Positions 36,049 to 62,236 of a DNA stretch of 64,000 bases are shown here, piece by piece; the stretch's first letter is position 1, and every line of letters starts with the position of its first letter. The stretch is from NCBI GenBank assembly GCA_001244265.2, contig CDLV01000013.1:1116001-1180000 (forward strand), given 5' to 3'. The position numbers were made by a program, and so were the translations under genes. The DNA is from Microbotryum violaceum (taxonomy: Eukaryota). Under the pieces are notes generated by a model. The model was not told the DNA's origin and did no database searches. It worked only from the letters and a program-made list of their open reading frames with translations.

Positions 36049-36248
36049 CGAGTGACATCATCTGAGCGCGGCGCACCGCACAAGCTCCCGCGACTCTTCG
36101 GTCGGCGCGGCAGCAGTTGACATCGCGCTTCAGAAGTCAATTTGGTTCCTCGCAGCCACAAAGCCTATTCGCCGTCCAGGAATCTAATATCTACGTTTTG
36201 TAATTGCATGTGGAAAAATCCGTTCCTTTATTTCCCGTAAGTCATTGG

Positions 36249-39200
36249 CTACCCGGTTGCCTTAAACACGGCCTTGCGCAGGATGTCGGCCTCGCTGATG
36301 TTGCTGCGGCTGCACATCGAAGAGAAGATGCCGTCCTTGTTGCGGAACAGGTTGATCGGCGTGTCGTACTCGGCGACCTGGCCTTCGGACATGACGAGCA
36401 CGCGATCGCAGTCAATGATGGTACGCAGTCGGTGCGCAATGATCAGCAACGTCTTGTCGTTGAACTCGCTGCGAATCGTCTGCTGGATGTGGCTGTCGGT
36501 CGCGAGATCGACCGAGGCCGTCGCTTCGTCGAGCACAATCACCCGGCTGTCCTTGACGAGCGCGCGCGCGAGCGAGACCAGACTACGTTGGCCGACGGAC
36601 AGGTTGAGCCCTTCGTCCTCGATGACCATATCGAGCGTAAATCGGCTCGTCGCCGTCGTCGCTGCCGTCACCGCGGTCTCGTCTCCCGTTGCTGCGGTGG
36701 CGGTGGCGGTGGCTGTGGTGGTTGTGGCGGTGGCGGTGGCTGGGGTGACTTCGCCGGCGGGGACCTGGTCGACGAGGTACGCTCGCCTCATCGCGTCCCA
36801 CAGCACACGGTCCTCGTAAACGTTGAACGGGTCGAGGTTCGACCGGAGCGTTCCACTGAACAGAAGCGCATCCTGCGGGATGATCGCAATTTTTTCGCGC
36901 AGTTGATTCAACCCGAGCTTCGAAATGTCGATGCCGTCGATCGAAATCTTGCCCGACTGCAGCTCGACCATGCGAAACAGGCACTGCAGGATCGTCGATT
37001 TGCCCGCACCGGTCCTGCCGACGACGCCAATCTTCTGCCCGCCCTCGATACGGAGACTGAGCCCCTTGAGGACCGGCGGTAGCTCTGGGCGGTACGACAT
37101 GAAGACGTTTTCGAACTCGATCGCGCCGTGCGCAGGCCAGCTCGGGTCCGGGCGTGTCTCCTCGATGTCGGACGGCGCCTCTTGCTCGAGGTTGTTGGCG
37201 TAGTGCAGCATACGCTCGACCGAGTTCATATCGTTTTCTGTGTCGACAGTTGCAATCCAACGTCAGAAAACCGACTATTAGAAAGCGGGGGACCAAAGCA
37301 TCAACGCACCGACTTGGGCCAACAAGGTGATGAGCCACGAGAATGCCCCCTGGACCGAGATGATGGTTGCCAAAAGTAAACCAGTCTGAGCAGGAGATAC
37401 AGATTCCCTCGCGACGACAGTAAACAGAGCTACGAGAAGGACGAGAATGGTGCCGAATGCGTCGAGTCGAACTTGGAGCCACTGCTGATTGATGACCGTC
37501 AAGGCGTACGCGCGATTTTCGATGTCGATGTACTTTTCGTTCACCTTCAGGAACTGTTTGGTCCACATTTGAGAATCAGTCTACTTAAGAATCGTCCGAG
37601 GATGTGTCTTCCCCCGCATGAACATACCTTGCCAGACTCTCCGAAAGCTCGGATCGTTGCGAGGCCGGTCAAACTCTCGCTGAAGTGAGCGTAGATAGAT
37701 GACCGCAGCAAGTTATCTGCAGCGGAAGAATGACACCCGAGTCAGCCCAGGAAGGGACACTGCCTCGCTCAAGACTGCTAGACAGTCCATCGATGGTGTG
37801 ATCACCTAGTCGTTTGATCTCGCGTGCCGAGGTCCTATAAAAGCTGCCCACGTAGAAATAGGCACATAGGAGGAAGACAACGACGACGAGGAAATACGGT
37901 ACAACGATGGACACGAGGATGACAGACCCGATCACGAAGCCGCTCAAGCTGAGCGCCCCTTCTATAGAATCGTTGAGCTCATTGTCGATTGTGTCGATGT
38001 CCTTCGAGAACCTATGCAGGGCACGTGGAAGCGGAACGCCATCAGCAACTCTGACGGACACGGCCGTCAAGCGAGGTTGGCGGAGTTCATGGGCGCACCG
38101 GTTCATGATGCGACCTAGTGGGGTCGTATCAAAAAATGCCATTGAAGCATGCATGATTGAGGCAAGCGCCTGCTGGTGCAGAGATTTTGAGGCGTTGTAG
38201 CCGAGGATGACCACCGCCAAAGTCATAGCGAAAGTCAAGACCGCCTGGGCGACACCGAGAAGGGCGTAAACACCCATGTATAAGCCGTTGGGAGAGTGGA
38301 AGCGACTGAAGCACGGGCGAGGGAGAACTGCTCAATCCAAATATACAACAGCGCCTGGACCCATCGTCGCGGAGGGTAAGCAACTCACTCTTCCTGCCAC
38401 CACACGAGCCAATAGGAGCCTAGCACTTGCGCGCCTTGGGCGAGCGCCAGACTGAGGATGAGCAACGGCACCGTGATGTGGCCCTTGGCCGCACGCAGGA
38501 AGGCCATATAGACCCCGCCGTCGACTGCTCCCGTCGCACGCTCCTCCTCTTGCATCAGCCCTTTGCCCTTCTTCTTCATCTTCTTCGGTGCGTCCACGAG
38601 CTCCCCCCCGGCGGCCGCGATGGCATCCTCCTCAACTTCCTCCTCCTCCTCCTCGCGCTTCTCGGTCGCGTCGCCGCCAAACTCGGCGATCATCTTAGAG
38701 AACGGCCCATCCTTGTCCGCGATCAGATCCGCGTACGTGCCCTCCTGCTGGATCCGGCCCTGGTCGATCGTGATGATCCAATCAACGCGAGGCAAGAAGT
38801 GCACGGCATGGGTCACGAGCACGCGTGTGCGGTCCTTCAGCGCACCGCAGATCGCATCGTCGAACAGGGCCTTGCCAACGTGAGCATCGACGGCCGAGAG
38901 TGGGTCGTCAAGCAGCACAATATCCGCGTCAAAGTAGAGCGCACGCGCGATGTTGACGCGCTGCTTCTGCCCACCCGAGAGCGTCACACCCTTCTCGCCA
39001 ATCTCGGTCGCGTCACCAAAGGGCAGCATTTCGATATCCGCGTCGAGGCACGCGTTCGTGATCGCGCGTTCGTACCGGGCCTGGTCGTAGGGCTGACCGA
39101 AGAGCACATTGTCGCGCAACGACACGCTCTGCATCCAGGCGACTTGCGGCGCGTACGCGAGCGAGCCGTTGAAGGTGACCGAGCCCCGAGTACACTTCAT

Positions 39201-41121
39201 CTCGCCGACCAAGGCCTGCAACAGCGAACTCTTACCGGCTCCGATGGGGCCGACGATTGCACAAAGCTGACCCTTTGGGATGCGCAAGTTGATATTGCAC
39301 AACTGCATCAGCTCCTCTGCCTCGGCCGAAAGATTGTGTTGCGATGGTGATGGTGTATTGACAGGCGGAGAACCTTTTGCTTCCTTTGCCTCGCTCTCGA
39401 CAATATTCTTCCTTTTAGACGTGGCCTTGTGACTTTTCGATTCGGCCGCGCTCTCGGCAGGAGGTGGTCCTTCCCACTGAAAGTCGGCGTCGTGGACTTG
39501 AATGGCGTACGGAGAAGAGCTATCGTACTGGAAACTGTCCGCTCTTTTCTCAGCAAGAAGAACCTCGATGATCCTGCCCAACGCGTTGTGTGCATCCATC
39601 ATGTGTGCCAGCCCGTTGGGCAGTAGGCTCAGTGGCAGATTGAGCAGATTGAACAAGGTCAACGAGGTGAAGATGATGGCCGGGTTTTGAGAGTGGCCAG
39701 TACCGGCATACACGAGGAAGGCGATGACGCTTGCCAACGTGGGCAGGCATGTGGCGAAAGCGGAACTGGCGGCTCGCATGGCGAGCAATCCTTTGAGGTG
39801 GGACATCTCTGCAGCGCGTATTCCACCGACCTTGGCGAGGTATGGTTGTTGCCAGCAGAAGAACTTGATGATGCGCTGGCCTCCGATCAATTCTTGGATA
39901 CACTTGGCTCGCTTGTCGGTCCAAACCATGATTTTCTCGCGCGCCGCAAGCATCTTCGTCATTGCCCAAGCTTGCAGAGGGATTGCCAGTGCGAGGAAGA
40001 GGAAGCCAGCGAGCGAACTGGGGCCGAGATTAACGAGCAGTATAATTACGATGACTGCCATCTGTACAGGCGCCGTCCAAGTCATATGGAATAGGAAAGC
40101 CGCATCGTCGATCCTTGAAACGTCGGTCCCAATGTGGTTGACGAGGCGTCCGTTCGTCATGACCGTCCTTGCTTTGGCGGACAGCAACATGGACTGCCGA
40201 TAAATCAAGGCGATGAGAGTACCGCGAGCGAGCACGCCAGTGGTACCGGCACGGGAAAGATGCTGATTATTGCATGTCGAACGAATCAACTGCATGATGC
40301 AAATGGCGAAGGCGAGACCGAGGCCATATCCGACGGGCTGGGCCTCATAACCGGGGACGCCCTTGGCATGATTGTAGGCCTTGGTGCTGAACTGGATGAT
40401 GGCCTTGACGACGAGTGGCGAAGTCACTTGGGCGGTGTCAGCGACGACCTTGATCACGCCGGCACTCCAGAACTGGTACTTGAACGTGTCGCTTAACGCC
40501 AGGGCTAGGCCCGGCTTCCGTCGTCCATCCGCTGCGCCGAGGCCGATCGAGGCTCGCATCTTCCACCACCCACGACGCAGAACCGACGGCTTAAAAGACC
40601 CGTTATCAAGCGATTGGTTCCACGCCTCGACGTCTTGGCGGCGGCGCTCGAAGTTCTCCATCAGCTGGTCCGCGAGGGGACCGCACTCCATCGTCGGAGG
40701 CAGCTTCCACAGGTCCGTCGCGACGAGCGTGCGCTGGTAGCCGACAATGAGCAAGGGTTGGATCCAGTGAAACGTCCATATCGAGAGCAACGACGGCTTG
40801 GGCCAATCCGCGGCTTCGTCGAGCGACGGGTATGGGTCGCGCGGCTGCACACGTCCGAGGAAGGGGATGCTAGATTTGGACAATGTGGGCAGGGGTCAGC
40901 ACGAAAATTCGGAAACCGCGATCACGTTTCCGTGCTCGGGTCGCGAAGGCATCGGCTTTTATTCAGTACGTGGAATGAGTGCAAACTCACAATCTCGGCC
41001 TCGAGGATTTCGACTGCGGTTTTTCTTGTAATACCGACGGGTCTTTGAGATCGTCGCCAGATACCGAATCGCCCAGCTCCGACCCCTTTTCGAAGTTGCC
41101 TGGGTATGAGGGTGCCACCAT
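36249..41121 (-). CDS. ABCC/MRP (Yor1-like) full-size ABC transporter, copy A (divergent TMDs)
   Basis: Walker A GPIGAGKS and GRTGAGKS, signatures LSGGQ and LSVGQ, LLDDPLSAVD, LDEATASVD. First exon MVAPSY...EKPQSKSSRPRF starts at 41121; all exons splice in frame. Confidence 0.92.
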
Positions 41122-42399
41122 TTGTCTCACAGTTTGCGCCAATCTTTGAGAACAGGCGAAGCTTAACAGTGTCAGAAACGGCGAGTCGGCGGTAAGGGGT
41201 TCGATGCACGATGAAGCTTACTATAGATGCCGTGTGGTGCGAGTCGGACTGACAGGGCTTGCTTGATTGCGTGCCCACGTGATCGGGGCTGCCAATAGAG
41301 TCGAAGCCTACCGCCTCCTGTGAGCTACTTTCTGTGTGCAGCACCCTGTGATAGACCAGTTTCGAGCTTCCCTATATCTTTGTAGTGGCAAGGAAGCAGG
41401 TCAATTCGAGTTGAATACCTCGGTAGTGTCGTGAAGTGCCGGGAGAGACTTCGGAAGTGTAGAGTGGCTCGGTGACTGGTGATCGTTCGAGTCATACCCG
41501 CGCAACAGCTTGCGACAGTGTGCGGCGTTTCACTGGAGGGCCTGTCATAAGGAGGTGCCCCTGAGATAGCTAGTACCTTAATGCCGCTAGTCGCTTATCT
41601 CGCGAATTGTGCATTCGAACCTATGGCCGACCCAAAACGACTGAGATTGAATGACTCGACGGGCAGTCGACCGCGTGGTCGGTGAGACGCGCACGCGCCT
41701 ACAGAGTAATCGGGCCGATCACCGGCCACAATTTGATCTCAGCACGCGCCGCCGCCAACTACTGGCACTCCTGAGCTCCGTAGATATCCGGGGGATTGTC
41801 GGCTAAAATTATAATGTCCTACCTATTTATATATAACGCGGCTACCACCCATGCGGCGTCATCCAAGAGATTGCTTTACTAACTTTTGTATGTAAATTGC
41901 GGGCCCGCGACTTAAAATCGCTGTTATCGACTGTATTGCGGCCTGGGCCGCTCGAGGTGAATGTGTCAGCATCCTGCTGAGTCTGCCCTACCTGGAAATA
42001 GTCCTAGGTACGGTACCGGTCTGCTTACCTGGACGCTAGCTAGCCTACAACTGGTTCTACTCACCGGTTGATCTGTGTCGCTTGATCTGTGTGGGTGATG
42101 TAGGCGAACGTGGACTATTGCGAATAGAAGAAGCTCGGACGGGACAGGTGGCCGATCGCACCAGTCCTCGCGAGAAATGTGTGAGAGTAGGGTATCATCG
42201 AGTATTGCAATGACAAACCGCTCGAGGGAGTCATCAAACTAATGGGGAGTACTGTCCGAGAAATGCACGCTCTGCTTCCGTTGATCACGATTGCTTGGGA
42301 ACGCTGTGAGAGTGGCGAAGGCGAGCCGAGGTGTACGGGCTGCGGCGGGGCGAAGATGACAGCAAGGGGTCAGTGCATCTCGATTAGGGACTCGACTCG

Positions 42400-43110
42400 T
42401 ACCAAGCACGGAGGCTCAACTCGCCACACAGACTTGTTGTAACAAAACTTGTTCGCAACATCGGCAGGGCACTTGCGGTGGTAGTCGGAGCATTGGCGGG
42501 GGACACCGTCGTGGACGACGCCGTGCGAGTATCGGAAACCGTCGAATTCACCGCCGCGAATCAGAGGAAGCCGCACTGGTTGCCGCCCCCAGATGTCGAA
42601 CGAGGCGCAGCCCCTCAGTACGCGGCGCATGCATTGATGGAAGCAACGGTGACGGCGGGCTCGCCGTTCTTGGTGGTCTGGAAGTTGTCGTGCAAGAGAT
42701 CGACTTATTTGCGCAGAGAAACGAAGTGAAGAACCAGCATCAGTATCCCGATAAGAAAGCAGAGGAGATGGCAGCGATAATCTCACGAATCTGGGACGCA
42801 TTGGCCCGAGACATTTATGAAGCCTGACTTGCACTTCAAATCGCATTGGCCGGAAGTGTTGCATATCGGAGCGCCGTTGTCGTCGGGGCAGAGGGCCACT
42901 TAGATGCGTCGCAGACAGGGTCTTGGGGATGCAGGCGCCGCTGACCTTGTTGTGGTAGCCGGTGTCGCAGGTGATGTCGCACTTGCCCGCGGAGGTGCAG
43001 ATCGGGGTCGGGCACTTGATCACGTCGAAGACAGGGGTGTTGGGAAGGCAAGCACCGGTGACTCTCTTGTAGCCAGTGTTGCAGTTGCTGTTGCACTTGT
43101 CGCAGAAATG
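42400..43110 (-). pseudogene. Decayed Cys-rich tandem-repeat (probably secreted) protein gene
   Basis: Repeats CNTGYKRVTGACLPNTPVFDVIKCP / CDTGYHNKVSGACIPKT.VCD / CNTSGQCDLKCKSGFINVSGQCVP, broken by frameshifts; downstream exon has in-frame stops; no start or signal-peptide exon seen. Confidence 0.7.
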
Positions 43111-43133
43111 TTCTCAGGTGGAATCTGATAATG

Positions 43134-43245
43134 ACCACGACTCAGTCCAATGAACAGGGACGAGAACAGAGTGAGGTAAGATTCCAAAGAGCTGACCTGA
43201 TGATCACCACGACTCAGTCCAATGAACAGGGACGAGAACAGAGTG
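43134..43245. repeat. Perfect 40-bp direct repeat (43134-43173 and 43206-43245)
   Basis: ACCACGACTCAGTCCAATGAACAGGGACGAGAACAGAGTG occurs twice with a 72-bp period. Confidence 0.95.
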
Positions 43246-43559
43246 GCCAGAGACTAAGGGACAGCTCGCGGAAGGCTATAAAGTGAAGCGTAAAGCTAAT
43301 AAGGAGAGAGCTTAGAGACTAGCAAATTTAAGTAGGGAGATTGAGTGACTAAGGAGTGAATGACACGCCGACCCGACACCCGAGGCAGAGCAAAACTCAA
43401 GATCACCCCCTCGAGCGGTGAGCGTCAAGCCGAGGCAAACAGACCAAGGCAAACAGCAAGCAAGGGTCCAATGCAATGCAAAACTACCAACTAAAACAAA
43501 CCCCAAACTACCAAAGAAATCATACCCAAATACTCCGCTTCCTTGAGAGCCCAAGCCCC

Positions 43560-46511
43560 TCACGCCTCCTCGGCCTCGGCGCGCGCAATCTCCTCATCAA
43601 TTTCGCGCTGCCTCCTCTCCTCCTCCTCAGCCTCTTCATTGTCCTCCTCATCTTCCTCTTCCTCGCCCTCTCCCCCATCCTGCCTGGCCGCCCTCCCTTC
43701 CTCCTCTTCAACGTCCTCCAATTCGACCTGTCGCCCCGCACCAGGTACACCTCGCTGACGACTTGGGCCACCGTACCCACCAGGCATGACTGAGTTCTCC
43801 CTCTCCAGCTTCTCCGTCTCTTCGCGGTGCTTGTTGATGCGATCCATAGGGTCCTCGGGTATAGGCCCTGAAAGATCTTGACCGGTCAAAGCGGCGTAAC
43901 GATCCAGATCTGCCAACACGTTGTTGCACATTCAGCTCCCCAGTCGCCCAGGTCCAATGAACCCAATGCGCACAAATAAAAAATACTGACCAATCTCCTT
44001 CTTGTTCATCAATGCCGCCGTGATTTTCCTGGGGTTCTCCTTATCCTCCCTCACCCACTTGCTCTTGATCTGTCTCCGCGTCCTAGTAGGGAACAAACCG
44101 GCAATCATCTCGAAATCTGTTCCAAATTGCCTCAGCGCGTCGTAGAAGACCTCCGTCTCGAACGCGGTCCATTTGGCCGTCGCCCTCGCTTTGCCCCAAC
44201 TCGCCGAATTCGTATACTTGTTCTGTTGGTTGTCCTCGACCCTCTCCAAAGGCTCTAGTTGCGCATTGCGGGCTTGCTGCGCACGATCGACTTCGAGGGA
44301 GGCTTCGTCGATCTGGAATTCGCCGTCGATGAAGCGCACTTGAGCCGCGTACCCCGTCTCGACGAAACGATCCTCCTCATCGTCGTCATCCTCCCCCTCT
44401 TCGGCAGCACCTTCCTCATTCCCGGTCATGGCACGCATTCGTTCTTCGATCGAAGGTGGTTCAGGTGTCTCAATCTCGACTTGACGAGGGGGTCGCACAT
44501 CAGTCGGATCCGGCAACTCCTCTTCATCCGTCGCAATCTCAGGCAATGCATCCCCTCTCTGATGCGCCGCCTCAATGAACCCCATCATGACTTGGCCCTG
44601 TTCCTCGTCCTCCGTATCGCTCGGCAGACCTTCCTGCCTCCTCTTCATGTGTCTCTTCGTGCGTTGGCGCTTCTCTGTTCTCTCCTGCTTGGTCATCTCG
44701 TGCTTCTTCAGCAACGCCTTGCCCCTCGCAGAGACCCTCCCATCCCATTGATCCTTCCCCGTCGCAATCTCGGACATGGTCGTCAACGCCGGATCGAGGT
44801 CTTTGAGTCTCTTGTGCGGCACGAAACGGGGTCGAGCTTCTTGCTGAGCAAGGCGACGCGTCTTGTCTTGCAGGCGTTGCGTCTTGGATTTCTTCTTCCT
44901 CTTCTTTTGAGATCCATCGGCCCCGATCGCGTTGTCTTGAGAATCGTCCGACCCATCCTTATCGCTATCGTTTTCCTCCTCGGCATCCTCATCCTCATCC
45001 TCATCGTCGGAGTCGGTATCATCCGATGTCTCAGGCGCATCGACCCCAGTGCGCGCCGCATCATCCGTCATCTGATAGTCCTCATCCTCGGTCGCCGCAT
45101 TCGCAGCCGCCAACAAGGCCTGTAAACCCCCACTGGCAGTCTGGTCATTCGCTTTTCCCTTCCCTTTCGTCGGCTTCCGTAAGGCCAATGGTGCGGTTGC
45201 GCTTTTCTCATGCGGTCCTGCAGCTTCGTCCGAATCGTCGCTCTCGTCGGCGACTTTGCTCTTTTTCGCAGGTCGCCCGCGTCCACTTTTTACTGTCGAA
45301 GGTCTCTTCGTCGCCTTCTTCTTCCCCTTCTCCGCCGTCGTCCGAGGGAGCTCTTCTGCCTCGTCCTCCGAACTCTCCTCAATCATCCTTCCCTTCCCCT
45401 TATTCCCCTTCTCCGGCGATACCACCGTCGCCCTCGTCGACCTCCTCTCCCCGACCCCCGAATCCTTCTTCGCCGCCTTCTTCGTAGTCGCCGCGGTTCC
45501 CACCACCCCCGTCTGTCCTCGCTTGACCTGCCCGCGTTTCATCATCTGCAACTTTTTCCCTCTGATAACGCGCTGAGAAGGCGGTTCTTCCTCATCCGAA
45601 GAATCCTCTTCTTCTTCGACGGGCGGAGCTTGTGTAGTCTTGGCCAACGCAATCGCGTACCTCGGCACGCGTTTCCCCTTTGCGTTCGAAGTGGAACTCC
45701 AAGTCGCAGCGAGCCTCTGTTCTTCTTGCTCATCCTCTTCCGCAGTGGGCGTAGGAGGTAATGAAGGATAAGTCGTCGGTGGATCGATCGTGTTCTTGGA
45801 CGTAGAAGCGATGGGGGTTGGAGGTCGAGGAAGGGTAGAAATCTTAGGGCCACCTCTCGGGCTGCTGGTGGAAGCCGTAGGTTGTGCGGTCGTCGGTTGA
45901 GTCGAGAGCGTTGGATCGCGAGGGGTGAAGGATAAAGGTCTTGAGGAAGTTGGTGCAGTGGTCTCGGGGTGGGTAGATGCCGAAACGATCGTAGGTGGTC
46001 GAACGGGCGAGGACGAACCCCCGCTCGTCGCCGGCGTCGTCTCGCGCCAGGTCGGATCCCGGGGTGCGAAACCGTTCCCGTTCCCTTTGCCCTTGCCCGT
46101 CGTCGACAAGGTACTGGGTAAAGCTGGCTCTTTGAACGCCTCCGCGTCTCCATCGCGCTCTGTAGGACTAGTCGCCTCTGGATCCAAGTCGAATTCCTCG
46201 ATCCCTCCTAAAGGGTTCAACCCCGTCGCTTCAAAGCGAGGTGTCGCCGTGCCTACGGAGGCCAAGGAAGGTGTGGTAGAAGAAGCACGTTGGAATGAGG
46301 ACAAGGTGTTCTTGCGCTTGGGGACGAATCGGGTCGTGGATTTGTCTGTGGTGCGAAGGGGAGGGTGTTAGTCGGTTTTGGTCGGCAAGCTGGGGGAGGG
46401 GAGGAGAAGGGGTTGTTTGGCACGGCATGGAACGGGGTGTATCCACGTGAGGAAGGAGGAAGGAGGAAGAAGGGAAGGGGACAACCTACTTATTCGACTT
46501 GTAGTGGACAT
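43560..46511 (-). CDS. BDP1: Transcription factor IIIB subunit B'' (SANT domain)
   Basis: KWTAFETEVFYDALRQFGTDFEMIAGLFPTRTRRQIKSKWVREDKENP, AQVRFIDGEFQIDEASL; short first exon MSTTSRI starts at 46511. Confidence 0.9.
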
Positions 46512-46653
46512 CCTGGAGGTTGTGCAAGACACGCCCCACAAAGGAGGGTGGAACGGGGGAGGCGACGGAGCGTGTTTGTTGGGCGTGTCGGAGGCTAACC
46601 GGTCTGTACAGTCCGAGCGGCGCGTCGACTCGGGACTGGCACGGACTGGGCAG

Positions 46654-46688
46654 TAGTGACTAGTGACTAATGACTAGTGACTATGACT
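46654..46688. repeat. 7-bp tandem repeat (TAGTGAC, about 5 copies) in the BDP1/ESS2 divergent promoter
   Basis: TAGTGAC TAGTGAC TAATGAC TAGTGAC TATGACT. Confidence 0.85.
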
Positions 46689-47045
46689 GGGCCAACGGGG
46701 CACGGCACTCTCCAAAGGCCAACACTGCAGTGATCGGAGCCGTGCCTTTACGAACAAATTTTAAATTTTGCCACAAATTTGCTTAAGAAATCAAGCCTCG
46801 GATCGGATCTACTGAGAAGATGCGTTCTGGCTGGGGTCGTTGCCACTGCTAACTGCTCGGGCATCCACTCCGAGTCGGTAGCCGGCTTCGATCATGAACC
46901 GACCCCGAGGTCCGAGCGTTCCCATCGGGCGCCATCATACTGCCATCATCATCCTCGTTTCTCTCCTCTCTCCTCTCTCCGCAGCGTCTTCCCTCTTTCC
47001 CACAACGGGTTAGCATCGATCACCTCCTCACTACTCTCAACAACC

Positions 47046-49399: not shown

Positions 49400-49723
49400 G
49401 GTTGCTTGCGTACTTAAGCTTGGCTAGCAATGCAGTGATGAAGCATAGCAACGTGTATAATGAAGTCAAGAAAAGATAGCTTTACGATCAGTCAGGGAAA
49501 AGGCGATAACGATACACATCGCAAGTGTAGGGGAATACAAGTATATCAACGGAGCGTCGTTACGAGAGCAAGCGAGTCTGTGTCAAGCATACGATAAAAA
49601 TAGAGAAGGGGGGGTCCTTACGTCAGTCCCCTGTTTAGTTTTGGGACGATGATGATGCACAGAATAAGGGAAAAGCGGATGGACTATAACAGACAGATGG
49701 TCGATGTTATCGTCGCTGGCGAA

Positions 49724-51658: not shown

Positions 51659-52142
51659 GGGCAAAGTGACGTGGATGGTTGCCCGCGCAACTTGGATGCG
51701 GTGGATGCCAAGGCGCGACTCGTTCCCCCATCGCGAGGCTTGCTCGTCATTCGAAGCTCGAGAAAGTTGAGGAGCCTTTATCAGGTCGAATATCACTTTC
51801 GCTAGCCATTGCAACGGCCATAATACTAGATGTCGGCCGATTCACTTCGAAGCAAAGACACTCAAGGTCATGTTGTTTTTGAGAGAGTCATACACGTCGG
51901 TTGTGCATGGACTCCCGCTTAAATACCGTGCCAAAAAAAGTGCAACCGAGCCCTTCACGAGCACCGTCGTGTGATACCCTACGAAGTACGCGTAGTTCGA
52001 AGCGATCATCACGATTTCTACCGTGCACCACCTACTGAATTTTTCTCTTTTTTTGTGTAGGATCTGCACGTGTCACCACCGGACAATCATCACGATTCAC
52101 GGACCGACGCCGGTGGCGACGGGTGGCAGAGAGAGTCGGGAG

Positions 52143-52197
52143 CGGCTGTGCCATTCGGCGCGCCTCCGGCTGTGCCATTCGGCGCGCCTCCGGCTGT
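52143..52197. repeat. 24-bp tandem duplication (2.3 copies)
   Basis: CGGCTGTGCCATTCGGCGCGCCTC twice, then CGGCTGT. Confidence 0.9.
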
Positions 52198-53622
52198 TTG
52201 AGCGTGAGTCGATTTACCTACCCCTTCCTTCAAGCCTTAGGTAGGCAACTACACCATGAACCACGGTACGGTACCTTCTACGACACAGCACTTTGTTTTC
52301 AATCAGCTTGTGAACGTCCATGCGGACTGTAGAGGAAGTTGACGACTCGGCACATGACCATGATGAGATGTCTCGGGCCGGGCACCGGCCATGCACGTCG
52401 GAGCGGAGCGGAACACCCCACCCTCGCACCCGAATTCGGCAGCGACCGATGGGCAATGTGGAGACCCTCTGGGCCTCTGCTGCCCTCCGCTCGTCGGAGT
52501 CATCGCTGTAGGGTCTTCGCGATCACTGGAGGGTTTGACGTTAGTCAAGTGAGCCTGAGACCCGGCTCGTTACAAATTAAAGTAGGGAGGCACGCCAGAT
52601 GGGTTGAATGTGTCAATCGTGTGAATTGAGACCACGACCGCCGTGACACGGCGCGGATCCGAATATCCGAACCCTCCCTTGTAGGACGAGACAGGCGACA
52701 GACCCCTCTCGAAATGGTTTGCTGCTATTTTTGAGCCGAACTTTGGTAAGGACCTGCTGTCGGCGCTTGAATGGAGCAAAAAGAGCCCCACAGATGCTTG
52801 CAACAATTGTCGATGATTGATAGGCCCATGCTTTGTGATGCTTGCTCAGCGCAAGCTAAAGCTAATTCGGTGATTCGGAAGCGCGGCCGTCCACTCGGAA
52901 TCAAGGTTTATTCGAGGCCACCTCGCGCACCAGGCCTCACATGCCTCACACTCCGCCGGTCAGCGCTTATCCCTCTCATGGTAGAGTTCCACGCCCGCAG
53001 TGACTCGAGTCGCTCGACGGCTTCGACAAGCTCTGACACCGCCGCAGCCCTTCCAAGCCACAGCGTTCTGTTCCCTCCCTCTCACCTCCTCCCATCCTCC
53101 GTATTAGGTGACTATCAGCCTACCTGCACCGCCTGACGAGCCTAGCCCCGTTTTTCAAAACCCACCACGTGTCTCTCGGCGACGGCGACCGGATTTGTGT
53201 AGGCTCGTACTCCTCGAGGGAGACTGGATCGACAACCAGTAAGTACACGAGACAGAGTACGGGTTGTAAGGGAGTATTTGGAGCATTAGGGGAAAGACTA
53301 GAGGCGCGCAGTGCGAGTGTGCGAAATATCTCTTAAGTCCAAAGAGAGGTCCAAGCGGCGCGGCCGGCTAGGCCCGGCGCGGATTGGAGATCGATCTAAG
53401 CAAGACAATTTGTAGGTCGACCTGGCTCACGCTGCTCAACTCTGCGCCGAGCGCCAGCCGCGTGCCTTCGCGATCGGCCGGTCGGCGGCGGCGGCGGAGA
53501 CCAGCGGAGACTCGACCCCGTCTACCCGGTTGACCTTTGCTGACCACGCGCTCCGTTTGGCCTTTCTCACGTTTCCCTCCGTTCCTCAGGTCACAGCAAT
53601 CAGACCACCAACAACCGTGGTC

Positions 53623-56600
53623 ATGGTCGCGAACGTGCCATCCTCATCATCCTCGGTCACACGGGGTGATACAGGCTCCAAGGAGGACGTGGAAAGGCAC
53701 TCGGAAGAGGGCAGCCACCAAGACGATCTCGCCCACAAGCCGACGTTTGGAGATCTCGAGAAGCAACAGACGAACGCGACGCAGGCCTCCGCGATCCTGA
53801 AGGAGAAGCCCAAGCTGCAAAGGAATAAGCTCAAGTTGTAGGTCCTTTCTCTCCTCCCACGCTTCACTGTCATAGGGGACATTCGAGCGCATTGCATTGA
53901 CTGACATGCCATGTACACCTCATACCTTCGTCGCGCGCGCCTCCACCCTCGGGGTTGTTCTCGCTTCGTCATTCCTCGATCCTCGATGCCGTTGCCCGAT
54001 CCCCGCCGCAAAATTCAATTTGCAGTATCCCCTTCCTCGGACGTGTACAGCCACGTGATCCTTACCCCTCGCTCGACGAGGCTGCGGATTGGCCCAAGCC
54101 GTCGTTGCTCTCGATATGGACGTTTTACTGGATCCAACCCTTGCTCATTGTCGGCTACCAGCGCACGCTCGTCGCGACGGACCTGTGGAAGCTGCCTCCG
54201 ACGATGGAGTGCGGTCCCCTCGCGGACCAGCTGATGGAGAACTTCGAGCGCCGCCGCAAAGACGTCGAGGCGTGGAACCAATCGCTTGATGACGGGTCTT
54301 TTAAGCCGTCGGTTCTGCGTCGTGGGTGGTGGAAGATGCGAGCCTCGATCGGCCTCGGCGCAGCGGATGGACGACGGAAGCCGGGCCTAGCCCTGGCGTT
54401 AAGCGACACGTTCAAGTACCAGTTCTGGAGTGCCGGCGTGATCAAGGTCGTCGCTGACACCGCTCAAGTGACTTCACCACTCGTCACCAAGGCTCTGATT
54501 CAATTCAGTACCAAGGCCTACTATCATGCCAAGGGCGTTCCCGGCTATGAGCCGCAGTCGGTCGGCTATGGAGTGGCGCTCGCCATCATCGTATGGCTTA
54601 TGCAAGTCATTGCATCGCTCGGGTCCCACCAATTCTTCGCGCGCAGTGCCAGTACCGGTGTCCTGGCTCGCAGTACGCTCATCGCGTCGATCTACCGCCG
54701 GTCAACGACCTTGTCGGGCAAGGCGAGGACGGTGATGACCAATGGACGTCTTGTCAACCACGTCGGCACGGATGTGTCGAGGATCGATTTCGCCGCTGGC
54801 TTCTTCCATATGTCTTGGACGGCACCAATTCAGATGATTATCATCATCGTCATTCTTCTCGTCAACCTTGGCCCCAGTTCGCTCGCAGGCATCTTTTTCC
54901 TCTTCTTGTCGATCCCGCCTCAGGGTTGGGCCATGAAGAAGATGTTGGCGGCCCGCAAGCGTGCCATGGTCTGGACCGACAAGCGCGCCAAACTGATTCA
55001 GGAGCTCTTGGGCGGCCAACGCATCATTAAGTTCTTCAGTTGGCAACAGCCTTACCTTCGCAAGTTGCGCGAAATCCGTGAATCCGAAATGTTCCACGTC
55101 CGCAACCTGCTCGCCATTCGCTCCGCGACTTCGGCCGTGGCGATGTCGATGCCAGCCATCGCAACCGTCGTCGCCTTCCTCGTCTACTCCGGCACGGGCC
55201 ACTCGCAGAACTCGGCCATCATCTTCACCTCGCTGACCTTGTTCAACTTGTTGCGCATGCCGTTGATGATGCTGCCCGTCTCGCTCGCGACCATGACCGA
55301 CGCACACAACGCCTTGGGTCGGATCACCGAAGTCTTCCTTGCCGAATCTCGCTCGGGCACGTACCAATTCGACGCCGCCTCCGAATTTGCAATTCAGGTC
55401 GATGACGCTGATTTCCAATGGGAAGGCGCCCCACCCGAGGAAGCAGCCGCTGGTTCGAAGAAGGAGCAGCAAGCCTTGGTGCACAAGCTCAAGCAGGAGC
55501 AGAAGAAGGCGAAGCACGACAAGAATAAGAGCGAAAAGAAGAAGCTCCCTGCACCGGAGCAAGTCATCGTCGACGAGAAGAAGCCCGGTGTTGCACTCGA
55601 CCTTGCCAACAAAGCTCCTGCCGACGGCGTCGACGCTGTCGACACGGACGTCTCGAGGGGGGTGCCTGCACCTGCTGAACCAACCCCTGACGAGTCGCAA
55701 GACGAGTCGCCGGCCGATAAGGAAGAGGACCTCATGCAGCTTAGCCACATCAGCTTTCGCATTCCCAAGGGTCAATTGTGCGCGATCGTCGGCCCCGTCG
55801 GAGCCGGCAAGAGCTCGCTGTTGCAGGCCTTGGTCGGCGAGATGAAGCGTACTCGGGGCTCGGTCACCTTTAACGGCTCGCTCGCGTACGCGCCGCAAGT
55901 CGCTTGGATGCAGAGCGTGTCGTTGCGCGACAACGTGCTCTTCGGTCAGCCCTACGACCAGGCCCGGTACGAACGCGCGATCACGAACGCGTGCCTCGAC
56001 GCGGATATCGAAATGCTGCCCTTTGGTGACGCGACCGAGATCGGCGAGAAGGGTGTGACGCTCTCGGGTGGGCAGAAGCAGCGCGTCAACATCGCGCGTG
56101 CGCTCTACTTTGACGCGGATATTGTGCTGCTTGACGACCCACTCTCGGCCGTCGATGCTCACGTTGGCAAGGCCCTGTTCGACGATGCGATCTGCGGTGC
56201 GCTGAAGGACCGCACACGCGTGCTCGTGACCCATGCCGTGCACTTCTTGCCTCGCGTTGATTGGATCATCACGATCGACCAGGGCCGGATCCAGCAGGAG
56301 GGCACGTACGCGGATCTGATCGCGGACAAGGATGGGCCGTTCTCTAAGATGATCGCCGAGTTTGGCGGCGACGCGACCGAGAAGCGCGAGGAGGAGGAGG
56401 AGGAAGTTGAGGAGGATGCCATCGCGGCCGCCGGGGGGGAGCTCGTGGACGCACCGAAGAAGATGAAGAAGAAGGGCAAAGGGCTGATGCAAGAGGAGGA
56501 GCGTGCGACGGGAGCAGTCGACGGCGGGGTCTATATGGCCTTCCTGCGTGCGGCCAAGGGCCACATCACGGTGCCGTTGCTCATCCTCAGTCTGGCGCTC

Positions 56601-58699
56601 GCCCAAGGCGCGCAAGTGCTAGGCTCTTATTGGCTCGTGTGGTGGCAAGAAAAGTGTGTATATCTGCTTACCGCTTTTGACACGTTGTCCGGGTTGTTCC
56701 GAAAAGCTGCTCTTGCTGATATGCTCTGGCTTCGTTCATCAGTCACTTCCACACCCAGAATGGCTTCTACATGGGCATCTACGCCCTCCTCGGGATACTG
56801 CAAGCCGTCTTCTCCTTCCTCATGGGTTTGGCCTCCGTCTTCATCGGCTACAACGCATCTCGCTCGCTTCATCGTTGCGCGATCCAGGGTGTCATGCACG
56901 CACCCATGTCCTTCTTCGATACCACCCCTCTTGGGCGCATTATGAACAGGTTTTCCAAGGACATTGACACCATCGACAACACGCTAAACGACTCTATGCG
57001 CATGGCTCTGAACACGTTTGGTTCCGTCCTTGGCGCCATCATCCTGATCTCGATTGTCCAGCCTTACTTCCTGATCGTAGTCACCTTCATCTTGTGCTGC
57101 TACTTCTACGCTGCCAGCTTTTACCGCACTTCTGCGCGTGAGATCAAGCGATTGGGTAGGTGCATCACGCGACTCGGTGCTCACCGATGGCATGCTAATC
57201 TTTCTCGTTTGAGTTCCTCAGACAACTTGCTTCGCTCCTCCCTGTACGCTCACTTTAGTGAAACTTTGTCCGGCTTGGCCACCATCCGCGCCTTTGGAGA
57301 AACGGACAAGGTCAGCATTAGTCCTACAGTCGGCTGTCCTAGGAGTTTGAAAGACTGATTCGGTATCATATCGCTTTCCCCACACAGTTCTTGAAACGCA
57401 ACGAAGAGTACATCGACATCGAGAATCGCGCCTACGCCCTCACCGTCATCAACCAGCGATGGCTCGGATTCCGTCTCGATATGTTCGGTGGTCTCCTTGT
57501 GTTCATCGTCGCGATCTTTGGTGTCGCCACGAGGACCAAAGTTTCACCCGCACAGACCGGTTTGATTCTGTCGTACATCCTCTCGATCCAAGCTGCGTTC
57601 TCTTGGATGGTTCGTCAACTCGCCGAAGTTGGTATGTACAGGCCTAATGTTTCGGTTCCCCGCTTTCTAGTAGTCGGTTGTCTGATGTTGGGTTGCAACT
57701 GTCGACACAGAAAACGATATGAACTCGGTCGAGCGTATGCTGCACTACGCCAACAACCTCGAGCAAGAGGCGCCGTCCGACATCGAGGAGACACGCCCGG
57801 ACCCGAGCTGGCCTGCGCACGGCGCGATCGAGTTCGAAAACGTCTTCATGTCGTACCGCCCAGAGCTACCGCCGGTCCTCAAGGGGCTCAGTCTCCGTAT
57901 CGAGGGCGGGCAGAAGATTGGCGTCGTCGGCAGGACCGGTGCGGGCAAATCGACGATCCTGCAGTGCCTGTTTCGCATGGTCGAGCTGCAGTCGGGCAAG
58001 ATTTCGATCGACGGCATCGACATTTCGAAGCTCGGGTTGAATCAACTGCGCGAAAAAATTGCGATCATCCCGCAGGATGCGCTTCTGTTCAGTGGAACGC
58101 TCCGGTCGAACCTCGACCCGTTCAACGTTTACGAGGACCGTGTGCTGTGGGACGCGATGAGGCGAGCGTACCTCGTCGACCAGGTCCCCGCCGGCGAAGT
58201 CACCCCAGCCACCGCCACCGCCACAACCACCACAGCCACCGCCACCGCCACCGCAGCAACGGGAGACGAGACCGCGGTGACGGCAGCGACGACGGCGACG
58301 AGCCGATTTACGCTCGATATGGTCATCGAGGACGAAGGGCTCAACCTGTCCGTCGGCCAACGTAGTCTGGTCTCGCTCGCGCGCGCGCTCGTCAAGGACA
58401 GCCGGGTGATTGTGCTCGACGAAGCGACGGCCTCGGTCGATCTCGCGACCGACAGCCACATCCAGCAGACGATTCGCAGCGAGTTCAACGACAAGACGTT
58501 GCTGATCATTGCGCACCGACTGCGTACCATCATTGACTGCGATCGCGTGCTCGTCATGTCCGAAGGCCAGGTCGCCGAGTACGACACGCCGATCAACCTG
58601 TTCCGCAACAAGGACGGCATCTTCTCTTCGATGTGCAGCCGCAGCAACATCAGCGAGGCCGACATCCTGCGCAAGGCCGTGTTCAAGGCAACCGGTTAG
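53623..58699 (+). CDS. ABCC/MRP (Yor1-like) full-size ABC transporter, copy B (canonical TMDs)
   Basis: Same NBD motifs as copy A; canonical LFNLLRMPL, FFDTTPLGRIMNRFSKDID, NQRWLGFRLD, WMVRQLAEVENDMNSVER. Confidence 0.95.
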
Positions 58700-59458
58700 C
58701 CAATGACTTCAATGATATAAAAGGAGGACGTGGGATGGTAGACGCGTCGCAGTGATTCACGATTGGGGTTCGAACGAGATTCGGGCATTTGGCCCACCCC
58801 TTTATTATCTGGGTTTAGAGCACATGTATGAACCGGAAAAACACGTAGATCTACCCTTGCTGTATCGATGAAACTATCTCATGTATATTTGCCGTTCGCG
58901 TTGGCGTCTCTAAAAAAGCCTTACAGCCAGCATCATGCCTCTTTGGTTGACGCCGTCTACACAAACTACAGCGAATATTAACTTTGCACTGAATCTTCAC
59001 TGGTCTGCTCTCAAGGTTGTAGCCAAATGTACGCTTCCGCGGATGAATGAGCTGAGCGCGACTCGACCGTGGATTACGTAAGCCCGTGACGCCGCTCCTG
59101 TAAGGGGACGCCTTACGGAAACAGCAGTATAAGTAGCCTCTGAGTAGCTAGAATTATCCTAGTTACGACTTGCTTTTAGCCTGGCGGTCAAGAACGAGAG
59201 AGTGTATTTCATGCACATCAGAGGCGCATACTTTACAGATCTGCTGCTCCGCACCTGGTAGGGCGCTTCAATTCTGATGTGGCGACCTCGAAGCACTTGA
59301 GACTCGCAACCTGCGCCTTCGCAAGCGCAATTGTTGGATCGATGCCGTGAGTACCTTTCCCCACTTGAGTCCTGGGCACAGCGCCATTTTGGTATCGTCT
59401 GCCTACCCCTGTCCCCTCGACTGAGACTGACTCCGGCCCTCGATCCCCTATCTTTGCA

Positions 59459-59828: not shown

Positions 59829-61856
<2,028 letters not shown>

Positions 61857-62236
61857 AGTGCGTTGTAATGAGGTGATGAACTGGGTGGATGAAAAAAGAT
61901 GAGCGAAAACGTTTGCAATCTTATCTTTGGTGATCAAACAAGTGGACGGTTCGAGTGACGCGGAGGCTCTCTTCGCCCTGGGACTGAAAAACGACCACCA
62001 TTCAAAGAGCATGAAGCAGTGGGGCACGAGCAATGCATGCAGTATTGCAGGGATGATAGCATAAGGGGTGAACGACAGGACACGACTAGAATTATGAACC
62101 TCCCAAAAGCCGTGACTTAGCGCTGAAAATTAAAAGTCTCGAATGCGCAGTCGTCGGGTGGGTGTCCGTGAAGCGGTTTGGTCGTGAGTGGTGGGGTATG
62201 AATATCTGAAGGGCCGCAAGGAATCGAAAAGGAAGC

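What the first reader, a model, noticed from the sequence alone, without database searches (positions are those of the whole stretch)
36239..58709. Inverted ABCC paralog pair with homogenised NBDs and diverged TMDs: a possible invertible, domain-shuffling locus
Seen: copies A (-) and B (+) share three near-identical inverted blocks. These are 40432-40811/54084-54463 (380 bp, about 3 differences by eye), 38395-39227/55815-56647 (833 bp, NBD1, about half a dozen differences) and 36239-37255/57693-58709 (1017 bp, NBD2, identical 326-aa ORF including the T/A low-complexity insert). Between the blocks, TMD1, the linker, TMD2, most introns and the first exons are heavily diverged, so the duplication is old but these tracts were recently homogenised. 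Inference: repeated gene conversion spares the specificity domains. Because the repeats are inverted with their 5' ends facing inward, a crossover in the NBD1 block would flip the inner segment (BDP1, ESS2, AIM6-like) and create in-frame TMD1(B)-TMD2(A) and TMD1(A)-TMD2(B) chimeras. A crossover in the N-terminal block would swap promoters and first exons.
Basis: partly seen in the sequence, partly recalled or inferred. Interest (0 to 1): 0.8.

Follow-up and report, generated by a model that had tools for sequence, protein, structure and literature searches.

The report
Gene-converted inverted ABC transporter pair
Two old, oppositely oriented copies of a drug-pump-type transporter gene in an anther-smut fungus keep their ATP-binding parts nearly identical by copying them onto each other, while their membrane parts have drifted far apart; this is a clear but known kind of gene evolution, and no flipping or domain swapping was seen.

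Summary
Copy A (-, CDS 36249-41121) and copy B (+, CDS 53623-58699) share three inverted tracts: 380 bp with 3 differences, 833 bp with 6 and 1017 bp with 2. The rest of the genes is about 55-75% identical. The gene models equal Microbotryum lychnidis-dioicae MVLG_01830 and MVLG_01826, both YOR1-type ABCC pumps.

Synonymous divergence is about 0 inside the tracts and saturated (>1.5) in the membrane domains. The same mosaic, with nearly the same edges, occurs in four Microbotryum species. Within the tracts, 39 of 56 variable protein columns vary by species and none by paralogue. In the membrane domains, 70 of 193 are fixed A/B differences.

Contigs from four independent public runs break at the tract edges. 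Tract contigs mostly have about twice the depth of their flanks, and the edges shift slightly between genotypes. This is recurrent interlocus gene conversion, not an assembly artefact.

The "invertible, domain-shuffling" reading is geometrically correct but unsupported. None of 8 proteins from 4 species is a chimera, and no data here can show orientation. It is a new member of a known kind, of moderate interest.

The parts
36249..41121 (-). Copy A: YOR1-type ABCC transporter gene. It has 7 exons (41121-40991, 40869-38389, 38305-38099, 38011-37806, 37716-37628, 37553-37310, 37237-36249) and encodes 1448 aa.
   Evidence: Spliced model built against orthologues. Its translation is 100% identical to P0125 = MVLG_01830 of M. 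lychnidis-dioicae. Pfam finds ABC_membrane and ABC_tran twice each.
53623..58699 (+). Copy B: YOR1-type ABCC transporter gene. It has 6 exons (53623-53837, 54026-56653, 56743-57155, 57222-57310, 57388-57631, 57711-58699) and encodes 1525 aa.
   Evidence: the translation is 100% identical to P0121 = MVLG_01826. Best solved relatives are ABCC3, ABCC2, MRP1 and YCF1, E about 1e-249 to 1e-225. Walker A, signature and Walker B motifs are intact in both NBDs.
40432..40811 (-). Block 1, arm in copy A: N-terminal cytosolic region up to the start of TMD1.
   Evidence: 380 bp with 3 differences from 54084-54463. No synonymous differences in the two 40-codon windows inside the block; the 3 differences are nonsynonymous.
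54084..54463 (+). Block 1, arm in copy B (B residues 92-218).
   Evidence: In runs X3, X11 and X9 a separate contig spans exactly 54084-54463 at about 1.3-3.5x the depth of its flanks. In X10 it spans 54084-54521.
38395..39227 (-). Block 2, arm in copy A: NBD1 after Walker A, the following linker and the first helix of TMD2.
   Evidence: 833 bp with 6 differences from 55815-56647. It ends 6 bp before the exon end.
55815..56647 (+). Block 2, arm in copy B (B residues 669-946).
   Evidence: Contigs span 55815-56626 (X3, X9), 55815-56347 plus 56349-56647 (X11) and 55798-56647 (X10), at about 1.4-1.9x flank depth.
36239..37255 (-). Block 3, arm in copy A: last 18 nt of the last intron, the NBD2 exon with its Thr/Ala-rich insert, the stop codon and 10 nt of 3' flank.
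   Evidence: 1017 bp with 2 synonymous differences from 57693-58709.
57693..58709 (+). Block 3, arm in copy B (B residues 1197-1525, identical protein in A and B).
   Evidence: A 991-bp contig 57693-58683 occurs in X10 and X11, at about 1.6-1.9x flank depth in X3 and X10 but 1x in X11 and X9.
41122..53622 (.). Inner segment between the two start codons. It holds a BDP1-type Myb gene (ORF 43932-46367, -), an ESS2/Es2 gene (ORFs 47581-48669 and 48563-49399, +) and at least one unidentified gene (about 49.8-51.9 kb).
   Evidence: Pfam: Myb_DNA-bind_7 E 1.4e-24; Es2 E 2.6e-40 and 9.1e-19. No family was found for 49861-51841. Three locus tags, MVLG_01827 to 01829, lie between the copies.
38012..38098 (-). 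An 87-nt intron present only in copy A.
   Evidence: A exons 38305-38099 plus 38011-37806 total 413 nt, the same as the single B exon 56743-57155.

Best explanation
Two YOR1-type ABCC transporter genes lie head to head, 12.5 kb apart. They arose by a duplication in the Microbotryum stem lineage, before M. intermedium split off. Since then, recurrent non-allelic (interlocus) gene conversion has kept three tracts nearly identical: the N-terminal cytosolic region, NBD1 with its following linker, and NBD2. It has done so independently in each species. The two membrane domains, the TMD1-NBD1 linker, the first exons and the introns have escaped conversion and diverged to saturation.

Shown here:
- the mosaic itself;
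- its age;
- that it recurs in four species with nearly the same edges;
- that tract ends still move between genotypes.

Inferred, not shown: conversion now starts inside the identical tracts and stops where homology fails, that is at introns, indels and membrane-domain sequence that is about 30% diverged. This makes the pattern self-sustaining. Selection for different membrane domains (copy A evolves several times faster than B) probably created the pattern and helps to keep it. Crossover outcomes, which would invert the inner segment, are possible in principle but were not seen.
For: - Tracts and edges.
- Nei-Gojobori dS is 0.00-0.12 in 40-codon windows inside the blocks. It is 0.75 to saturated across TMD1, the linker and TMD2 (most windows above 1.5), with dN 0.08-0.36 in the membrane domains.
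- Third-position identity is 0.98-0.99 in the blocks and 0.46-0.47 outside.
- In all 4 species examined, A versus B within a species is 96.9-100% identical in the blocks and 68-74% in the membrane domains. Orthologues in the blocks are less alike (93-98%) than paralogues within a species.
- 12-row trees: the membrane domains split into an A clade (100/100) and a B clade (83/90) inside a Microbotryum clade (100/100). In the blocks, M. intermedium A and B pair up (100/100) and all four M. lychnidis-dioicae/M. silenes-dioicae copies group together (91/91).
- Column patterns in the blocks: 39 of 56 variable columns have A=B in every species and 0 are fixed A/B differences. In TMD1 plus TMD2: 2 and 70 of 193.
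- Protein-level block edges agree within about 10 residues in the 4 species.
- The identity runs 18 nt into an intron and 10 nt past the stop codon. This excludes protein-level constraint and cDNA-templated repair as causes.
- Independent reads: 4 of the 24 listed runs were laid. In all 4 the contigs end at the block edges. Block contigs have about 1.3-3.5x the word depth of their unique neighbours in 9 of 12 block-run combinations. X10 and X11 have different tract ends, and X11 carries a 55848T-55871T combination absent from the window.
- GC3 is 0.80-0.83 in the blocks and 0.66-0.74 outside, as GC-biased conversion would give.
Against: - No DNA of the other species could be reached, so the cross-species evidence is at protein level only, from annotated models. 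Some of those models read introns through.
- In X11 the NBD2 block contig has only 1x depth. In X9 a contig runs through the right edge of block 3 at 1x. The A copy of that tract may therefore differ in some genotypes, or this may be noise (X9 has about 7x cover).
- X3 and X9 show no differences from the window in unique sequence, so they are probably the same strain lineage. Truly distinct genotypes number about two or three.
- High GC3 may reflect NBD codon usage rather than biased conversion.
- Selection and a mechanical barrier were not separated as causes of the edges.
Confidence: 0.9

Rival explanations
1. One reading: the locus is an invertible, domain-shuffling unit. Crossovers in the inverted blocks flip the inner 13-20 kb, giving TMD1(B)-TMD2(A) and TMD1(A)-TMD2(B) pumps (NBD1 block) or swapped promoters and first exons (block 1). 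On this reading the isomers exist in populations and matter functionally.
For: - The geometry is right: the repeats are inverted, in frame, 0.4-1.0 kb long and 13.3-20.4 kb apart.
- Conversion is recurrent, and by established knowledge of recombination a share of such events resolves as crossovers.
- Weak hint: one M. saponariae assembly carries a full copy A on one contig and a second 513-aa N-terminal piece of A on another contig together with B.
- Weak hint: the number of locus tags between the copies differs between species (0, 1, 3, 8).
Against: - 0 of 8 annotated proteins from 4 species (M. saponariae from two haploid assemblies) is a TMD1/TMD2 chimera or carries the other copy's first exon. 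There are 43 fixed A/B differences in TMD1 and 27 in TMD2 that hold across all four species.
- No joints were reported in the 4 runs laid (table 5), although contigs cannot bridge the blocks.
- No recombinase gene or dedicated site was noticed in the inner segment.
- Membrane-domain halves that diverged together for this long may not work when mixed (inference).
Confidence: 0.07
2. Neutral inversion polymorphism only. Crossovers in the NBD2 block occasionally flip the whole 20-kb interval, which changes no protein and only swaps which flank each gene body adjoins. There is no functional shuffling.
For: - Block 3 is the longest and most perfect tract (991 bp identical), and its exchange would be silent at protein level.
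- Nothing here tests flank adjacency in the other species. The left-flank gene search returned only the window's own species, MVLG_01831.
Against: There is no positive evidence. The window's order, MVLG_01831 - A (01830) - three tags - B (01826), matches the published numbering.
Confidence: 0.15
3. The identical tracts are an assembly or polishing artefact in which one copy was overwritten by the other in the consensus.
For: Near-identical repeats of about 1 kb are a known place for consensus errors (general knowledge).
Against: - In 4 independent runs from 4 studies the contigs break at the same edges. Block contigs have about 1.3-3.5x the depth of their flanks in 9 of 12 block-run combinations.
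- The same mosaic is present in separately assembled and annotated genomes of three other species.
Confidence: 0.01
4. A recent duplication in which the membrane domains diverged very fast (positive selection or repeat-induced mutation), with no gene conversion. Alternatively, extreme purifying selection on the NBDs.
For: Copy A's membrane domains do evolve fast (branch 0.29 versus 0.034).
Against: - Synonymous sites in the membrane domains are saturated.
- The A and B membrane-domain clades each contain all four species.
- Species-specific substitutions and each species' own low-complexity insert are shared by both copies.
- The identity covers synonymous sites, 18 nt of intron and 10 nt of 3' flank.
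Confidence: 0.02

Closest known systems
ABC11-ABC1 pair of Pichia kudriavzevii (Candida krusei), PDR/ABCG pumps. Source paper: Lamping et al. 2017, Genetics 205:1619, which is not held. It is known here only from passages of PMC6053246 and a reference-list entry in PMC8544900.
   Same: Neighbouring fungal ABC efflux-pump paralogues are kept alike by recurrent gene conversion. Recombination between the copies can make chimeric pumps (ABC11-1), which in that species go with lower fluconazole resistance.
   Different: - That pair is tandem, about 98% identical over the whole gene and of the ABCG class. Crossovers there contract or expand the array.
- This pair is inverted and of the ABCC class. 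Only three tracts are homogenised while the membrane domains are about 30% diverged.
- A crossover here would invert rather than delete, and no chimera was seen.
Arm-to-arm gene conversion between inverted paralogues or palindrome arms, for example human Y-chromosome palindromes and C. elegans hsp70 pairs (recalled, not from a call). Also this scan's earlier notes on inverted ABCB half-transporters of Naegleria.
   Same: Inverted neighbouring copies exchange sequence by non-allelic conversion, giving tracts with dS near 0 in older duplicates.
   Different: Here the mosaic is domain-wise. It is stable across a whole genus, with nearly fixed edges, and covers about half of each coding sequence.
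Partial concerted evolution with islands of divergence, for example primate red/green opsins and RHD/RHCE, and the models of Teshima and Innan for duplicates under conversion plus selection (all recalled).
   Same: Conversion homogenises most of two paralogues while functionally distinct segments stay different.
   Different: Those cases are tandem or differently arranged animal genes. Here the diverged part is large (both membrane domains), and intron and indel barriers coincide with three of the six tract edges.
Inversions by crossover between inverted repeats, for example F8 int22h, IDS/IDSP1 and FLNA-EMD in humans, and bacterial hsdS shufflons that swap specificity domains (all recalled).
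   Same: Inverted repeats inside or beside genes allow flips that rebuild genes.
   Different: In those systems both orientations have been observed, and the bacterial ones use a dedicated recombinase. Here no second orientation, no chimera and no recombinase was seen.

Membership tests
ABCC (MRP/YOR1-type) full-length ABC transporter | TMD-NBD-TMD-NBD architecture in one polypeptide | tested here: met
   Pfam ABC_membrane and ABC_tran each hit twice per gene in the exon translations. The full models are 1448 and 1525 aa.
ABCC (MRP/YOR1-type) full-length ABC transporter | Closest sequence relatives are ABCC members | tested here: met
   phmmer of copy B against PDB chains: the 60 hits shown (of 114 matched) are all ABCC-family proteins. 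They include ABCC3, ABCC2 and MRP1 (E about 1e-249 to 1e-243), YCF1 (1e-225), ABCC4, ABCC5, SUR and CFTR.
ABCC (MRP/YOR1-type) full-length ABC transporter | Intact Walker A, signature and Walker B motifs. NBD1 has Asp in place of the catalytic Glu and NBD2 has Glu (this criterion is recalled). | tested here: met
   Both copies carry GxxGxGKS twice, LSGGQ and LSVGQ, IVLLDDP in NBD1 and VIVLDEA in NBD2.
ABCC (MRP/YOR1-type) full-length ABC transporter | Orthology to S. cerevisiae YOR1 specifically | tested here: inconclusive
   Several basidiomycete hits are named YOR1 by their sources (P0063, P0079, P0086). No reciprocal search against yeast and no tree including yeast ABCCs was made.
Interlocus gene conversion / partial concerted evolution | Tracts with dS near 0 inside paralogues whose remaining parts are anciently diverged | tested here: met
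Interlocus gene conversion / partial concerted evolution | In the tracts paralogues group by species; elsewhere they group by paralogue | tested here: met
   (39 of 56 versus 2 of 193 variable columns follow the species). This is at protein level only.
Interlocus gene conversion / partial concerted evolution | Tract ends and tract variants differ between individuals, showing that the process is ongoing | tested here: met
   block 1 ends at 54463 in three runs and at 54521 in X10. Block 2 spans 55815-56626, 55815-56647 or 55798-56647. X11 carries a recombinant 55848/55871 combination. Contigs come from only 4 runs.
Invertible / domain-shuffling locus | Inverted repeats positioned so that exchange keeps the reading frames | tested here: met
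Invertible / domain-shuffling locus | Both orientations (isomers) exist | not testable with these tools
   Only short-read contigs were available. They end at the blocks. No eukaryotic genome DNA collection is on hand.
Invertible / domain-shuffling locus | Chimeric products (TMD1 of one copy with TMD2 of the other, or swapped first exons) exist | tested here: not met
   0 of 8 proteins from 4 species are chimeric.
Invertible / domain-shuffling locus | Dedicated recombinase or site | tested here: not met
   No recombinase family appeared among the Pfam hits of the ORFs scanned in the inner segment and flanks. Small or spliced genes could have been missed.

The most novel reading that the evidence does not exclude
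The pair is structurally bistable in nature. Crossovers in the 1-kb NBD2 block or the 0.8-kb NBD1 block flip the 13-20 kb between the copies. This would produce silent inversion isomers and, rarely, TMD1/TMD2 hybrid pumps or promoter swaps on which selection can act. Two observations would then be traces of it: the broken and duplicated copy A in one M. saponariae assembly, and the differing number of genes between the copies across species.
Probability: 0.12. Interest if true: 0.65.

Novelty: new member of a known kind. Interest (0 to 1): 0.35.

Why it matters
- **A clean natural example.** One gene pair evolves as two histories at once. The ATP-binding engines behave as a single shared sequence, while the substrate-facing membrane domains are free to diverge. 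This has held through the divergence of the four Microbotryum species compared.
- **Practical consequences.** Trees, orthology calls, dN/dS scans, read mapping, SNP calling and RNA-editing calls on these genes will be wrong unless the tracts are masked or treated separately. Short-read assemblies will break here.
- **A test bed.** The locus could show whether selection or mismatch rejection sets conversion boundaries.
- **If inversion isomers exist.** It would be a rare eukaryotic case of transporter domain exchange by inverted-repeat recombination.

Tried and rejected
- **Whole genome:** none is held for this window, so other paralogues, genome-wide repeat counts and long-range context could not be checked.
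- **Inner-gene search:** the Es2 ORF returned 19 proteins, none from Microbotryum. The likely cause is the length filter of 199-634 aa. The position of the inner genes in other species stays unknown.
- **Left-flank search:** it returned one cluster only, the window's own species (MVLG_01831 and a variant). Flank adjacency in other species was therefore not tested.
- **Sequencing runs:** no RNA holder is listed, so expression was not examined.
- **Contigs laid:** no contig spans a whole block with unique sequence on both sides. Orientation and linkage of TMD1 to TMD2 could not be read, and no joints were reported.
- **Metagenome scan with copy A:** 23 loci, all 33-54% identical, that is other fungi. 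Not used.
- **Earlier notes of this scan:** none for this genome or sequence. Two notes on another organism describe a similar but smaller conversion patch.
- **'AIM6-like' gene:** no Pfam hit up to E=5, and the best Atlas score was 0.81, below the useful range.
- **RIP-like mutation as the source of the 11 tract differences:** 9 are transitions and 3 are at CpG. This is ordinary, so it was not pursued.
- **cDNA-templated conversion:** rejected, because block 3 includes 18 nt of intron and 10 nt past the stop codon.
- **Literature:**
  - No paper holds MVLG_01826 or MVLG_01830 (0 papers).
  - 'Microbotryum' + 'gene conversion' + 'paralogs' gave 11 papers, of which 10 were listed and judged by title and abstract start only. 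None concerns this locus.
  - 'Microbotryum' + 'ABC transporter' gave 31 papers, of which 12 were listed. Passages of two were read and neither mentions this pair.
  - Supplements were not opened.

Full report
**Observation.** The region holds two copies of one gene in inverted orientation.
- The repeat finder reports inverted pairs of 1075 nt (99%), 940 nt (97%) and 588 nt (92%), plus two weak ones at 72% and 70%.
- Block 1 is 54084-54463 / 40432-40811: 380 bp with 3 differences.
- Block 2 is 55815-56647 / 38395-39227: 833 bp with 6 differences, and its longest perfect run is 584 bp.
- Block 3 is 57693-58709 / 36239-37255: 1017 bp with 2 differences and a perfect run of 991 bp.
- Between the blocks, 100-nt windows are 14-74% identical, with indels in the introns and the linker.
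- Blocks 1 and 2 have graded shoulders of 60-150 bp at about 77-90% identity. These look like the decayed ends of older, longer events.

**What the genes are.**
- Pfam finds ABC_membrane and ABC_tran twice in each copy.
- A protein search puts the window in Microbotryum. The best hits are annotated proteins of M. saponariae, M. intermedium and M. silenes-dioicae. The 90% clusters also hold M. lychnidis-dioicae MVLG_01826 and MVLG_01830.
- I built spliced models against these orthologues. Copy A has 7 exons and 1448 aa, 100% identical to MVLG_01830. Copy B has 6 exons and 1525 aa, 100% identical to MVLG_01826.
- The gene to the left of A is MVLG_01831.
- Copy B's nearest solved relatives are ABCC3, ABCC2, MRP1, YCF1, ABCC4 and ABCC5.
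- Both copies keep Walker A, signature and Walker B motifs in both NBDs, with the ABCC-typical Asp in NBD1 and Glu in NBD2.
- Several basidiomycete homologues are named YOR1 by their sources. Orthology to yeast YOR1 was not tested.
- The start codons face each other 12.5 kb apart. Between them lie a BDP1-type Myb gene and an ESS2 gene, plus sequence I could not assign. The 'AIM6-like' label is not confirmed.

**Where the blocks lie in the protein.**
- Block 1 covers B residues 92-218, the cytosolic N-terminal region up to the start of TMD1.
- Block 2 covers residues 669-946. That is NBD1 just after Walker A, the linker behind it and the first helix of TMD2. It stops 6 bp before the exon end.
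- Block 3 covers residues 1197-1525. It starts 18 nt inside the last intron and ends 10 nt after the stop codon.
- Diverged parts are exon 1 (25% aa identity), TMD1, the TMD1-NBD1 linker (which includes a 77-residue length difference), TMD2 and the introns.
- Copy A has an extra 87-nt intron (38012-38098) that B lacks.

**Conversion, not constraint or artefact.**
- Nei-Gojobori dS in 40-codon windows is 0.00-0.12 inside the blocks. It is 0.75 to saturated, mostly above 1.5, in the membrane domains and linker, where dN is 0.08-0.36.
- Third-position identity is 0.98-0.99 in the blocks and 0.46-0.47 outside.
- Identity extends into intron and 3' flank. This excludes protein-level constraint and cDNA-templated repair.
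- Four of the 24 listed public runs were laid on copy B: X3, X11, X9 and X10, from four studies. In all four, the de Bruijn contigs end at the block edges.
- Block contigs carry about 1.3-3.5x the word depth of the unique contigs beside them. Examples are X3 at 422, 402 and 412 against 201-253, and X10 at 59.5, 53.4 and 59.2 against 23-32.
- The tracts are therefore two-copy sequence in independent data, not a polishing error.
- Exceptions: block 3 has 1x depth in X11. In X9 (about 7x cover) a contig runs through the right edge of block 3. I cannot explain either.

**Recurrent and old.** I compared the A and B proteins of four species: M. lychnidis-dioicae, M. silenes-dioicae, M. saponariae and M. 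intermedium. Four outgroups were added, namely the best non-Microbotryum hits P0005, P0006, P0007 and P0010. The other 100-odd listed hits were left out.
- Within every species, A versus B is 96.9-100% identical in the three blocks and 68-74% in the membrane domains. Orthologues in the blocks are less alike (93-98%) than the paralogues of one species.
- The membrane-domain tree has an A clade (100/100, long stem of 0.29) and a B clade (83/90, stem of 0.034) inside a Microbotryum clade (100/100).
- The block tree pairs M. intermedium A with B (100/100) and groups all four copies of M. lychnidis-dioicae and M. silenes-dioicae (91/91).
- In the blocks, 39 of 56 variable columns have A=B in every species and none is a fixed A/B difference. 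In TMD1 plus TMD2 the numbers are 2 and 70 of 193.
- Each species' own version of the Thr/Ala-rich insert in NBD2 is shared by its two copies in three of the four species. M. silenes-dioicae differs there.
- Protein-level block edges agree within about 10 residues in all four species.
- The duplication therefore predates the deepest split sampled, and the same three tracts have been homogenised independently afterwards.

**Still going on.**
- X3 and X9 match the window in unique sequence. X10 and X11 differ from it at a shared set of sites, so they represent another lineage.
- Block 1 ends at 54463 in X3, X11 and X9 but at 54521 in X10.
- Block 2 spans 55815-56626 in X3 and X9, reaches 56647 in X11, and spans 55798-56647 in X10.
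- X11 holds T at 55848 together with T at 55871, 23 bp apart and so within one 31-mer. The window's copies have C-T (B) and T-C (A).
- Tract ends therefore move on the time scale of strains.

**How it most likely works.**
- Shown: mosaic concerted evolution by interlocus gene conversion.
- Inferred: events start in the identical tracts and end where homology fails. Three of the six edges coincide with an exon end, an intron or the stop codon. The other three lie inside exon 2, where identity falls through shoulders to about 70%.
- Once the membrane domains had diverged, rejection of mismatched heteroduplex would confine conversion. The pattern would then maintain itself.
- The initial escape of the membrane domains probably needed selection for different substrate-facing parts. 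Copy A's membrane domains evolve much faster than B's: orthologue identity between M. lychnidis-dioicae and M. intermedium is 81.5% and 76.9% for A, against 96.4% and 97.9% for B.
- GC3 is higher in the tracts (0.80-0.83 against 0.66-0.74). This fits GC-biased conversion but could also reflect codon usage.

**The inversion and shuffling idea.**
A crossover in block 2 would invert the inner segment and make in-frame TMD1(B)-TMD2(A) and TMD1(A)-TMD2(B) genes. A crossover in block 1 would swap promoters and first exons. A crossover in block 3 would flip everything without changing a protein.
- None of the 8 annotated proteins is a chimera. There are 43 fixed A/B differences in TMD1 and 27 in TMD2, and they hold in all four species.
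- No alternative junction appeared in the laid contigs. These contigs cannot bridge a block, so this is not a test.
- Two loose hints remain. One M. saponariae assembly has copy A on one contig and a second N-terminal piece of A, with B, on another. The number of locus tags between the copies is 0, 1, 3 and 8 in the four species.
- I could not reach that DNA. I put about 0.07 on a functionally relevant shuffling locus and about 0.15 on silent inversion polymorphism.

**Comparison with what is known.**
- The nearest fungal transporter case is ABC11-ABC1 of Pichia kudriavzevii, a tandem ABCG pair. It is about 98% identical through recurrent conversion, and unequal exchange gives an ABC11-1 chimera linked to lower fluconazole resistance. 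This comes from passages of PMC6053246. The primary paper, Lamping et al. 2017, is not held.
- Conversion between inverted neighbours and partial concerted evolution with islands of divergence are well known. Y-chromosome palindromes, opsins and RH genes are recalled examples, not taken from a call.
- Two earlier notes of this scan describe a 200-bp patch between inverted ABCB genes of another organism (not checked here).
- No paper in the library names these two genes.
- The Microbotryum papers listed for gene conversion or ABC transporters do not treat them (titles and abstract starts only, with passages of two papers).

**Verdict.** This is a new, unusually clean and long-lived member of a known kind. 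Interest is 0.35.

Noticed in passing
window 38012-38098 (-) versus 56743-57155 (+): Copy A has an in-frame 87-nt intron that copy B lacks, so an intron was gained or lost between the paralogues. The annotated A proteins of M. silenes-dioicae and M. saponariae read it through as 28-29 extra residues.
   Followed up: partly
window about 53217-53433 and about 59076-59292: Two short stretches, one on each side of copy B, have about 6-15x the word depth of their surroundings in all four runs laid. Each occurs only once in the window. They are probably fragments of dispersed repeats.
   Followed up: partly
copy A versus copy B membrane domains (B residues 240-520 and 955-1196): Evolution is strongly asymmetric. 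A's membrane domains are 77-82% identical between M. lychnidis-dioicae and M. intermedium, and B's are 96-98%. The tree stems are 0.29 versus 0.034. Copy A looks like the copy that took on a new or relaxed role.
   Followed up: partly
locus tags of other species, no window coordinates: In M. intermedium the two paralogues have consecutive tags (3464, 3465). The other species have 1, 3 or 8 tags between the copies. One M. saponariae assembly has a duplicated, truncated piece of copy A at a contig break. The structure of the locus may differ between species.
   Followed up: no
Its best Atlas score is 0.81. Its identity is open.
   Followed up: partly
window 57693-58683 in runs X11 and X9: The NBD2 tract has only single-copy depth in X11. 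In X9 it is joined without a break to the right flank. Copy A may lack the identical tract in some genotypes, or this is noise.
   Followed up: no
window 31801-32442 (+) and 61418-61876 (+): Flanking ORFs match Cation_efflux/ZT_dimer (E 6e-9) and, weakly, Aminotran_1_2 (E 1.7e-4). They are ordinary neighbours and not part of the finding.
   Followed up: no
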